A DNA stretch of 64,000 nucleotides. Origin: Eledone cirrhosa. Its lineage: Eukaryota. The position numbers and the translations under genes were made by a program. Every line of letters begins with the position of its first letter. Positions within the stretch are counted from its first letter, which is position 1. The notes beneath the pieces were generated by a model. The model was not told the DNA's origin and did not search any database. It saw nothing but the letters and a program-made list of their open reading frames with translations. Positions 57,461-59,197 of this stretch are shown piece by piece. The stretch lies in contig OZ024747.1 in assembly GCA_964016885.1 (NCBI GenBank), forward strand, positions 14,570,001 to 14,634,000, written 5' to 3'.

Positions 57461-59197
57461 AGTAATAATAATAAAATTGAAGACAAAAATCCAAAGAGGG
57501 CTCGATAAGGATAAATATATATCAAATATATAAGAACCGTAGAGCAAATATTTATTAAAATACCAGATTAAAGTTTAAGCAAAGAATCACTGCTTTCACC
57601 CTTAACGGGATCTTCTGAAACTAACAAAGTCAATCTGTAAACGCAGAACTGGATATTTCAAAAAACGTTGCAACCGGGGGAAGACAGGAAGACGATACTT
57701 TGGTTCGTGGAAACGTTCGCTGGCAAAGAACGGGAAAAAACGAATAATACGTCATTGATAGGAGCGGTGAAAACAATTACGCGCAAAGACAGAACCACGT
57801 TTATGGTATGAAAGAGGTCGTAGACTAATGTTCTCTTAGGTGGTGCATAGAGACGTTCTCTGGCAATGAACGAAAAAACGAAGATAATAAGTCATATGTG
57901 GAGCGTGAAGAACAATAGCACGCAAAGACAAAACCACGTAAATGGTATAGCAGAAGTCGTAGAATAAAATTCTAACTAGGAGACCAAATGAATCTCCGAT
58001 ACAGAGTAAAGAACAAAGTAAATAAATACAATGCAGAAGTAATAGAAATAAATAAATAAATACACGCAAACAAATACATACACAAGCATACGCAAAACCT
58101 TACCATAGGTATACAAAACCACGCACATATAAATATGTGTGTGTGTGTGTGTATGCTTGTGTATTACAGCCCCACGTTATACCCTAACGGATAGTACGAT
58201 CTATACGTGGATATTTTACGTCTTGATGTGGGAGCTAAGCATATGTTTTGTTTATTCCTTTACTTATTTGCATAGGTAAGTATATATTACCCGTATGTTT
58301 TGTGAATGTATGTATACCTTCTCGTACGTATATTTGATTGTTATGGCGTATAATTTTTATATATTCTGGTATTTAGGGTTTGGCTATGTGTATACGGGAG
58401 TTTTGCGTCTGCGTGAGTATGCAGGTTCGTACGTATGGTGGGTATGTGTATATGTGTACTTCTTGTTTTAGTTGACTTACGTCTCCGAACATTCGTGTAT
58501 TTATATGTAGGTATGTGTGGGCGCTTGTTATATACGTATTTATTTACTTGTATACGTTTATATAATTATTTATTTATTTGTACACAAGCATACACACACA
58601 CACATATTTATATATGCTTGGTTTTGTATACCTATGGTAAGGTTTTGCGTATGCTTGTGTATTTACGTATTTGTTTGCGTGTATTTATTTATTTATTTCT
58701 ATTACTTCTGTATTGTATTTATTTACTTTGTTCTTTACTCTGTAGCGGAGATTCATTTGGTCTCCTAGTTAAAATTTTAGTCTACGACTTCTGCTATACC
58801 ATTTACGTGGTTTTGTCTTTGCGTGCTATTGTTCTCCACGCTCCACATATGACTTATTATCTTCGTTTTTTCGTTCATTGCCAGAGAACGTCTCTATGCA
58901 CCACCTAAGAGAACATTAGTCTACGACCTCTTTTATACCATAAACGTGGTTCTGTCTTTGCGGGTAATTGTTTTTCACCGCTCCTATTAATGACGTATTA
59001 TTCGTTTTTTGCCGTTCTTTGCCAGCGAACGTTTCCACGAACCAAAGTATCGTCTTCCTGTCTTCCTCCGGTTGCAACGCTTTTTGAAATATCCAGTTCT
59101 GCGTTTACAGATTGACTTTGTTAGTTTCAGAAGATCCCGTTAAGGGTGAAAGCAGCGATTCTTTGCTTAAACTTTAATCTGTTATTTTAATAAATAT
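57461..59197 (-). mobile_element. Family Y long copy: 87-nt tail + ~615-bp inverted repeats + 417-bp spacer (Penelope-like)
   Basis: Arms 57548-58163 and 58581-59197 are highly similar reverse complements (hence identical peptides in ORFs 57836- and 58435+); each arm has a diverged ~140-bp tandem repeat and an HHR-like fold; (TA)n on both sides. Confidence 0.9.
59123..59173 (+). ncRNA. Hammerhead-like fold with non-canonical CAGAAGA core (mirror at 57572-57622, -)
   Basis: AGTTT-CAGAAGA-t CCC gttaa GGG t-GAA-AGCAG..TTGCT-T-AAACT. All three stems are present but position 4 is A rather than U. Confidence 0.55.

What the first reader, a model, noticed from the sequence alone, without database searches (positions are those of the whole stretch)
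57461..59197. Family Y: one 1.7-kb palindromic copy and three 110-150-bp copies keeping both termini
Seen: short copies at 4785, 8324 and 23303 each consist of the tail joined to an oppositely oriented piece of arm that always ends at ..CTGTTATTTTAATA, with different internal breakpoints and no overlap. The long copy has ~615-bp overlapping arms. Inference: a continuum from classic non-overlapping twin-primed inserts to long overlapping ones; the alternative is independent cruciform collapse of long palindromes. The spacer begins with ACG TTA TAC CCT AAC GGA (TLYPNG, 58174-58191), reminiscent of the TLxPxGLN C-terminus of PLE GIY-YIG proteins, which is weak support for a PLE parent.
Basis: partly seen in the sequence, partly recalled or inferred. 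Interest (0 to 1): 0.7.

Follow-up and report, generated by a model that had tools for sequence, protein, structure and literature searches.

The report
Twin-primed Hydra-clade Penelope retrotransposon ends
The palindrome and its three small relatives are truncated copies of a very abundant Penelope-like jumping gene, and across its copies each inverted insertion has one long end and one short end, likely because two DNA copies were started from the two sides of one chromosome break at two fixed points of the same RNA, with many short copies likely stopping at the RNA's capped start.

Summary
Observation confirmed. Family Y is the 3' end (pLTR) of a young Hydra-clade Penelope-like element: other copies carry a 710-aa ORF with a telomerase-like RT fold and Hydra motifs, ending in TLYPNG (coincidental, not conserved in 107 homologues). 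Exact end motifs occur at 12,000-20,000 sites. In 200 position-ordered loci, inverted insertions pair one tail end with one short end (106 mixed, 3 same-type). Inner breakpoints are not a continuum. They peak about 7-fold at one site (window 59123) and about 5-fold where the tail arm reaches the short-end site. The first peak (2,919 copies against 860 and 1,081 at the neighbouring bases) is usually preceded by a G the element lacks, the signature of copying an RNA cap. Overlapping arms share subfamily variants (279 against 15). Best reading: two target-primed cDNAs start at two fixed RNA sites 88 nt apart and are joined head to head; short copies are collision or cap run-off products, not collapsed palindromes. 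The layout is known for Penelope elements; I found the mechanism in none of three searches, but this scan reached it earlier on other families of this genome. No RNA data confirm the start site.

The parts
57459..58163 (-). Tail arm of the long insertion: 5'-truncated cDNA piece, reference 2548-3236 (reference = L032:4612-7847), outer end at the tail ('long') end
   Evidence: BLAST to full-length copy, 94%
57459..57547 (-). 88-nt tail between the two fixed ends; in tandem copies it continues through a 10-nt linker into the 5' UTR, ending about 41 nt before the ATG
   Evidence: L043, L047, L048
58160..59197 (+). Short-end arm: 5'-truncated cDNA piece, reference 2127-3148 (ORF end, 3' UTR, pLTR), outer end at the fixed short end
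   Evidence: BLAST 96%
58160..58163 (.). 4-nt microhomology (TGTA) at the head-to-head junction of the two arms
   Evidence: sequence against reference
58160..58194 (+). Last 11 codons and stop of the Hydra-clade RT-endonuclease ORF (..YYSPTLYPNG*)
58777..59044 (+). Two-copy 139-bp-period tandem repeat inside the 3' UTR (about 79% identical), mirrored at 57701-57973
59123..59123 (+). Likely capped transcription start (A at reference 3074, in an initiator-like TTAGT); mirrored at 57622 on the minus strand
   Evidence: breakpoint peak and extra G in other copies; inferred, no RNA data
59123..59173 (+). Hydra-type hammerhead-like motif with a variant core (U4 replaced by A); predicted cut after 59168; mirrored at 57572-57622
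   Evidence: layout matches File S2 of PMC8557442; descriptor hit, 0 of 2000 shuffles, descriptor written after seeing the motif
59197..59197 (+). Fixed short end (reference 3148), inferred second priming site
4782..4904 (.). Short copy: tail arm 3142-3236 (-) joined to short arm 3118-3148 (+); collision class
8321..8477 (.). Short copy: tail arm 3153-3236 (-) joined to short arm 3076-3148 (+), which stops 2 nt inside the likely RNA start
23303..23416 (.). Short copy, opposite orientation: short arm 3109-3146 (-) joined to tail arm 3166-3236 (+)
57090..57458 (.). Degenerate (TA)n array, left target flank
59198..59897 (.). Degenerate (TA)n array, right target flank

Best explanation
Family Y is the 3' end of a Hydra-clade Penelope-like retrotransposon, and each inverted copy likely records two target-primed reverse transcriptions, one from each strand of a cut in a (TA)n tract, started at two fixed RNA sites 88 nt apart and joined head to head. 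Shown: parent ORF, two fixed outer ends, the one-long-one-short rule, breakpoint peaks, the extra G, shared variants between arms, junction microhomology. Inferred: the RNA is capped at reference 3074 inside the pLTR, so both priming sites lie near its 5' end (+75, +163) and again at its 3' end. A tail-primed cDNA often stops where the second primer or protein sits (non-overlapping, L1-like twin class). Either cDNA can run off the cap and gain a C opposite it (short palindromic class). When priming uses the 3' copy and the tail cDNA passes the second site, long overlapping arms result, as in the window's 1.7-kb copy. The two cDNA 3' ends are joined by microhomology or end-joining with small inserts. 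Whether overlapping arms come from one RNA read twice (displacement) or from two transcripts of one source is open; I favour one RNA.
For: ORF of 710 aa in L032; fold closest to telomerase RTs; Hydra motifs. Polarity: of 100 tail-anchored loci 55 have an inverted partner ending at the short end and 1 ending in the tail; of 100 short-end-anchored loci 51 have a tail-ended partner and 2 (one insertion seen twice) a short-ended one. Break rate per 100 nt, tail arm: 0.34 (3158-3185), 1.70 (3134-3157), 0.27 (3083-3133), 2.12 (3068-3082), 0.34 (2900-3067); short arm: 0.29, 2.20 (3068-3082), 0.30. Genome-wide: 2,919 copies begin at 3074, 860 at 3073, 1,081 at 3075; only 152 of the 2,919 are read-through substitutions. 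Base before the break is G in 58 of the first 100 listed at 3074, 19 of 100 at 3073, 21 of 100 at 3075 (counted by eye from those listings); the element has T there. In 30 fetched loci the G is non-templated at 11 ends in 9 insertions, and L226/L227 and L241 carry it on both arms (read by eye). Extra G as cap signature in L1: PMC11702581 passage. Arms agree at subfamily-diagnostic sites 279 times and differ 15 times, 116 expected if unrelated; window copy 18 and 0. Microhomology of 2 nt or more in 13 of 23 insert-free junctions, null 3.7 +/- 1.8. In vitro an anole PLE nicks and extends both strands and starts RT at two internal sites that bound its tail (PMC11167929).
Against: About 40% of anchored loci have no mapped inverted partner (37 of 100 tail-anchored, 42 of 100 short-end-anchored); some are interrupted or have partners too short to map, but single-cDNA insertions also exist. 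22 of 45 precisely called junctions carry inserts, so annealing is not the only joining route. Of 28 ends at 3074 read, 8 have a G that the partner arm or flank could supply and 9 have no G. The peak at 3134-3157 lies in AT-rich sequence that blurs breakpoints and next to a predicted RNA stem, so it may be a structure pause rather than a collision; exact calling there was confounded by polymorphic sites. Twins bounded by the start site look somewhat older (2.8% tail mismatch, 39 twins) than long-overlap (1.4%, 43) and non-overlap twins (1.6%, 48), which collapse would also predict, though the long set was enriched for best hits. Arm concordance could in part be later gene conversion. The two 100-locus samples come from the same 46 Mb and share insertions. 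In vitro the anole enzyme showed no strand difference in start site, so the one-long-one-short rule has no biochemical explanation yet. Target-site duplications are hidden by (TA)n.
Confidence: 0.72

Rival explanations
1. Two separate RNAs in a dimeric RNP, each primed once, give the two arms; overlap is then free and no displacement is needed.
For: Both arms can reach the start site and each carry the extra G (L226/L227, L241); either arm can be the longer one; the anole protein is predicted to be a dimer (PMC11167929); one insertion, L159, has arms discordant at 4 of 10 diagnostic sites.
Against: Arms agree at 279 of 294 diagnostic-site comparisons, so both RNAs would have to come from one source nearly always; the tail-arm peak at the second site is simplest on one RNA.
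Confidence: 0.3
2. Self-priming snap-back: one cDNA (or an antisense template) folds back and copies itself, as proposed for rotifer PLEs (PMC3846280).
For: Arms share variants; small palindromes and microhomology at junctions; proposed in print (passage).
Against: In the window copy each arm holds sequence the other lacks (tail 3149-3236 in one, 2127-2547 in the other), so neither can be a copy of the other; about 45 of 95 terminal tail arms do not overlap the short arm beyond a few bases; extra G on both arms.
Confidence: 0.07
3. Short copies are long palindromes that lost their centre by cruciform collapse or deletion.
For: Junction microhomology; start-site-bounded twins are somewhat more diverged.
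Against: Deletion cannot add a G at one fixed base nor make a 3-fold single-base peak; breakpoints are asymmetric and often remove all inverted homology; non-overlap twins are as young as long ones (1.6% against 1.4%).
Confidence: 0.08
4. The 3074 peak is not a capped start but an RT pause or processed RNA end at the 5' edge of the hammerhead-like fold, with non-templated tailing.
For: 3074 is exactly the first base of stem I of the motif; a G also precedes 41 of the first 100 matches at 3120 (by eye).
Against: An RT moving 3' to 5' should pause before a fold, not after it; a type I hammerhead cuts at 3119/3120, where there is no peak (820 against 735) and about 18 of 30 fetched matches are read-through substitutions, not junctions; the site matches an initiator-like TTAGT (recalled arthropod cap-site motif); the D. 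virilis Penelope promoter and start lie in the pLTR (PMC2377424 passages).
Confidence: 0.15

Closest known systems
Hydra clade of C-terminal EN+ Penelope-like elements (Craig et al. 2021, PMC8557442; section 11, passages and supplement tables read)
   Same: Single ORF of about 710 aa with RW(K/R), DKT, CxCx5C linker, CxxC and CxH around E and N, no CCHH; (TA)n targets; hammerhead layout with ctgaagat..tgaa and U at the cut site; inverted 5'-truncated copy next to the insertion.
   Different: Unit is about 3.25 kb (most Hydra under 3 kb); hammerhead core has A at position 4 in 209 of 215 motif matches; tail is 88 nt rather than 30-40; tens of thousands of copies.
Inverted-pLTR insertions with a one-sided tail in EN+ PLEs (Adineta Pen2a, PMC3846280; D. 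virilis Penelope, PMC2377424; passages read)
   Same: Head-to-head inverted pLTR, tail at one end only, promoter region in the pLTR, partial tandems.
   Different: Those papers propose self-priming on an antisense template or leave the mechanism open; here copy statistics point to two primed cDNAs and a capped sense template.
Anole Poseidon PAc in vitro (Frangieh et al. 2024, PMC11167929; main text parts 1-2 of 4 read)
   Same: Both strands nicked and extended in AT-rich DNA; two internal RT start sites bounding the tail; ribozyme cleavage not needed.
   Different: PAc sites lie inside the ORF, here both lie upstream of the ATG; no strand difference in vitro, but a strict one-of-each rule here; inverted products were not addressed in the parts read.
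L1 twin priming and cap-G at full-length 5' junctions (PMC11702581, passages read)
   Same: Two primers from the two target strands, inversion, breakpoints close together on the RNA, microhomology joining, extra G from the cap.
   Different: In L1 the second site is a chance anneal, inversion is a minority outcome and overlap is 1-10 bp; here both sites are fixed, inversion is the majority outcome and arms overlap by up to 1.6 kb.

Membership tests
Penelope-like elements (EN+) | Single ORF with telomerase-related RT | tested here: met
   710-aa ORF; model pLDDT 93.8; top Foldseek rows are TERTs; VIA top row yeast telomerase Z 16.5, rmsd 4.5, 342 aligned, tied within 1 Z with bacterial RTs
Penelope-like elements (EN+) | C-terminal GIY-YIG endonuclease | tested here: inconclusive
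   Motif order VY..YIG..R..H..E..N conserved in the 108-sequence alignment and strand-strand-helix in the model; the domain folded alone failed (pLDDT 43.8) and no fold search confirmed it
Penelope-like elements (EN+) | pLTR / partial tandem and inverted 5'-truncated copy | tested here: met
   L043, L047, L048, L149, L210 tandems; inverted partners in over half of the loci
Penelope-like elements (EN+) | Optional tail at one end (30-40 bp in print) | tested here: met
   Present at one end only, but 88 nt long
Penelope-like elements (EN+) | Target-site duplication | tested here: inconclusive
   Flanks are (TA)n in 101 of 115 twins; 8-11-nt repeats seen by eye in L001, L025, L032, L168, not tested against chance
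Hydra clade | RWK motif, DKT for DKG | tested here: met
   LRWRAF and SDKTGN in P0001; RWk and DKT conserved in homologues
Hydra clade | CxCx5C linker, CxxC and CxH around E and N, CCHH absent | tested here: met
   CNCRNRADC, CDLC..E..LN..CKH; alignment shows no conserved Cys pair inside the GIY-YIG core
Hydra clade | Insertion into (TA)n | tested here: met
Hydra clade | Canonical hammerhead ribozyme in the pLTR | tested here: inconclusive
   Architecture matches File S2 but the core has U4A in 209 of 215 matches; no Rfam hammerhead hit; no breakpoint peak at the cut site; likely inactive
Hydra clade | Placement in the RT phylogeny | not tested
   Reference Hydra proteins were seen in the supplement and match by eye but no tree was built
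L1-type twin priming | Two non-overlapping inverted pieces of one RNA with adjacent breakpoints | tested here: met
   Met for one class only: 44 of 95 terminal tail arms end at 3134 or later
L1-type twin priming | Second primer anneals at a variable internal site | tested here: not met
   Second site is fixed at reference 3148

The most novel reading that the evidence does not exclude
Penelope-like elements integrate by obligate asymmetric dual priming: one RNP assigns the two target strands to two fixed, hairpin-marked start sites on a single capped RNA, and can copy the same stretch twice. Most copies are strong-stop-like run-offs of the RNA's first 163 nt, and transfer of such run-off cDNA to the 3' pLTR could be how pLTRs and partial tandems are regenerated. 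This would explain inverted pLTRs, the one-sided tail and tandems by one mechanism, without antisense templates or ribozyme cleavage.
Probability: 0.35. Interest if true: 0.75.

Novelty: new member of a known kind. Interest (0 to 1): 0.5.

Why it matters
How Penelope-like elements make inverted repeats and one-sided tails is named as open in PMC8557442 and PMC2377424 (passages read). This family has an intact ORF copy, tens of thousands of young insertions and single-base landmarks (predicted cap site, two start sites, a collision zone), so it turns that question into direct tests: CAGE, marked-template TPRT, and strand assignment of the two start sites. The element itself is an ordinary Hydra-clade PLE.

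Tried and rejected
RNA support: no RNA holder listed; contigs of runs of unrecorded kind cannot show starts. Long/short or empty alleles at the window locus: contigs stop at the (TA)n array, no answer. Pfam gave nothing for P0001 or 12 homologues; PDB sequence search with the alignment gave nothing; Rfam gave only low-score microRNA noise. Endonuclease domain folded alone: unusable model; the fold searches of the whole model were filled by the RT domain. First hammerhead descriptor missed the real motif through a scripting fault, redone. Exact tail-arm breakpoint calling failed twice on polymorphic sites; BLAST bins are used instead. Ribozyme cleavage as source of the hot spot: rejected. HDV-type ribozyme at the hot spot: considered by eye, topology does not fit. 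TLYPNG as a conserved PLE motif: rejected. No significance test was computed for the G share; the shares are counts by eye. Literature: searches found no paper applying twin priming or cap run-off to PLEs; subscription papers and bioRxiv supplements were not searchable, so absence from print is not established.

Full report
1. Observation. The long copy is real: arms 57548-58163 and 58581-59197 match at 597 of 621 columns, with an extra 88-nt tail on the left only, all between (TA)n arrays. The three short copies are at 4782-4904, 8321-8477 and 23303-23416 and each joins a tail piece to an inverted piece ending at the fixed short end. One of them shares up to 7 AT-rich bases between its pieces; otherwise the description holds.

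2. Parent element. The window lies in a 3.0-Gb genome. The spacer has 1,763 candidate matches, the 40 scored being 98-100% identical. Upstream of it, other copies carry an ORF that ends in TLYPNG and a stop; L032 holds an uninterrupted ORF of 710 aa. Its model (108-sequence alignment, pLDDT 93.8) is closest to telomerase RTs. The motifs RWR, DKT, CxCx5C, CxxC..E..N..CxH and the lack of CCHH match the Hydra clade as defined in PMC8557442 section 11, and the published Hydra proteins match by eye. TLYPNG is not conserved among 107 homologues. The endonuclease fold itself was not confirmed. Using L032:4612-7847 as reference: ATG 32, stop 2161, short end 3148, tail end 3236; in tandem copies the tail runs through a 10-nt linker into position 1. 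Exact motifs occur 13,877 times (tail), 19,958 times (short end followed by TA; the forward count is exactly 10,000 and may be a ceiling) and 12,185 times (read-through into the tail).

3. Sampling. I took the first 100 matches in contig order for the short end and for the tail, and mapped the pieces. The two samples cover the same 46 Mb and share insertions. Tail-anchored: partner ends at the short end 55, in the tail 1, interrupted 7, no mapped partner 37. Short-end-anchored: partner ends at the tail 51, at the short end 2 (one insertion), interrupted 2, no partner 42, false anchor 3. So inverted insertions carry one end of each type.

4. Breakpoints are multimodal. Per 100 nt at risk, tail arms break at 0.34 (3158-3185), 1.70 (3134-3157), 0.27 (3083-3133), 2.12 (3068-3082) and 0.34 (2900-3067); short arms at 0.29, 2.20 (3068-3082) and 0.30. 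The first peak sits on the short-end site, as expected if the tail cDNA meets the second primer or bound protein on the same RNA; AT-richness and a predicted stem are alternative causes, and exact calling failed there.

5. The second peak looks like a capped RNA start. Genome-wide 2,919 copies begin at 3074, against 860 at 3073 and 1,081 at 3075; 152 of the 2,919 are substitutions in read-through copies. The element has T before 3074, yet G stands there in 58 of the first 100 listed, against 19 and 21 of 100 at the neighbours (counted by eye). In 30 fetched loci (2 substitutions; three pairs being the same or duplicated insertions), the G is non-templated at 11 ends, could come from partner or flank at 8, and is absent at 9; two insertions have it on both arms (read by eye). 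An extra G marks cap copying in full-length L1 insertions (PMC11702581 passage). The site reads as an initiator-like TTAGT (recalled motif), and the D. virilis Penelope promoter lies in its pLTR (PMC2377424 passages). No RNA run was available, so this stays an inference. The template may be the full-length RNA or a short transcript from a solo pLTR; the data do not separate these.

6. Hammerhead. The first 51 nt of the predicted RNA fold as a Hydra-type hammerhead (File S2; descriptor written after the fact, 0 of 2000 shuffles), but with A at core position 4 in 209 of 215 matches. No peak is seen at its predicted cut (820 against 735; about 18 of 30 fetched matches are substitutions). Cleavage therefore does not shape these copies, in line with the anole element (PMC11167929).

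7. One source for both arms. In 58 overlapping twins the arms differ by 2.5% and share non-majority bases more often than arms of different insertions in most long overlaps. At subfamily-diagnostic non-CpG sites, 29 twins give 279 agreements and 15 disagreements, 116 expected if unrelated; the window copy gives 18 and 0; L159 is an exception. This fits one RNA read twice or two transcripts of one source; later conversion is not excluded. Junctions: 13 of 23 insert-free joints have 2 nt or more of microhomology (null 3.7), and 22 of 45 carry inserts. The window junction has 4 nt.

8. Rivals. Snap-back (PMC3846280 passage) fails for the window copy, as each arm has sequence the other lacks, and for the non-overlap class. 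Collapse cannot make the single-base peak or the G; against my reading, start-site-bounded twins are more diverged (2.8%) than long (1.4%) or non-overlap twins (1.6%), with a selection bias toward young long copies. The allele test failed.

9. Start-site context. Both outer ends are followed within a few bases by a GCTC..GAGC stem (z -2.1 and -1.9 for the short end, about -0.1 for the tail end, so weak alone). A like stem follows the hammerhead in two published Hydra sequences, seen by eye in the supplement.

10. Novelty. The element is a new Hydra-clade family with a known layout (PMC8557442, PMC3846280). Searches found no paper applying twin priming or cap run-off to PLEs; coverage is incomplete. 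This scan's earlier, unreviewed notes reached the same model on other families in this genome; my reading was set before that look-up and those notes are not independent evidence. Papers seen: PMC8557442 (section 11, passages, supplement part 2 and hits), PMC11167929 (parts 1-2 of 4), PMC3846280, PMC4209133, PMC11702581, PMC2377424 and bioRxiv 10.64898/2026.07.22.740005 (passages only). Interest 0.5.

Noticed in passing
window about 8495-8520 and 23440-23500: A second repeat follows the (TA)n right after two short Y copies and holds a perfect 12-bp hairpin; the same repeat follows L281 and flanks L209. It appears to be another (TA)n-targeting family.
   Followed up: no
window 43159 onward, + strand: Open frame of 588 codons whose start resembles the endonuclease-RT region of a non-LTR retrotransposon (by eye).
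   Followed up: no
L093, L095, L161, L192, L193 (also L092, L190): Older copies (88-92%) all spanning reference 3024-3148, several with the same left flank; likely one fragment amplified inside another repeat.
   Followed up: partly
L102/L214 and L182; L328: Identical non-TA sequence abuts the Y piece at reference 2950 in two loci and appears beside a third, suggesting a site-preferring secondary insertion or a chimeric family.
   Followed up: no
reference 3119 (window 59168): The predicted hammerhead cut base is replaced by G in about 11 of 30 fetched loci, a change that would block cleavage; may be a subfamily variant.
   Followed up: partly
reference 3071 (L091/L116, L168, L246): A few tail arms end 3 nt upstream of the main start and are followed by the complement of G, possibly a minor start site.
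   Followed up: no
L189/L314, L058/L096, L165/L166, L176: Complex insertions with three or four pieces and internal jumps, still bounded by the fixed ends, showing template switching before joining.
   Followed up: no
window 57701-57973 and 58777-59044: 139-bp-period internal duplication in the 3' UTR; some copies delete part of it (breaks near reference 2927).
   Followed up: no
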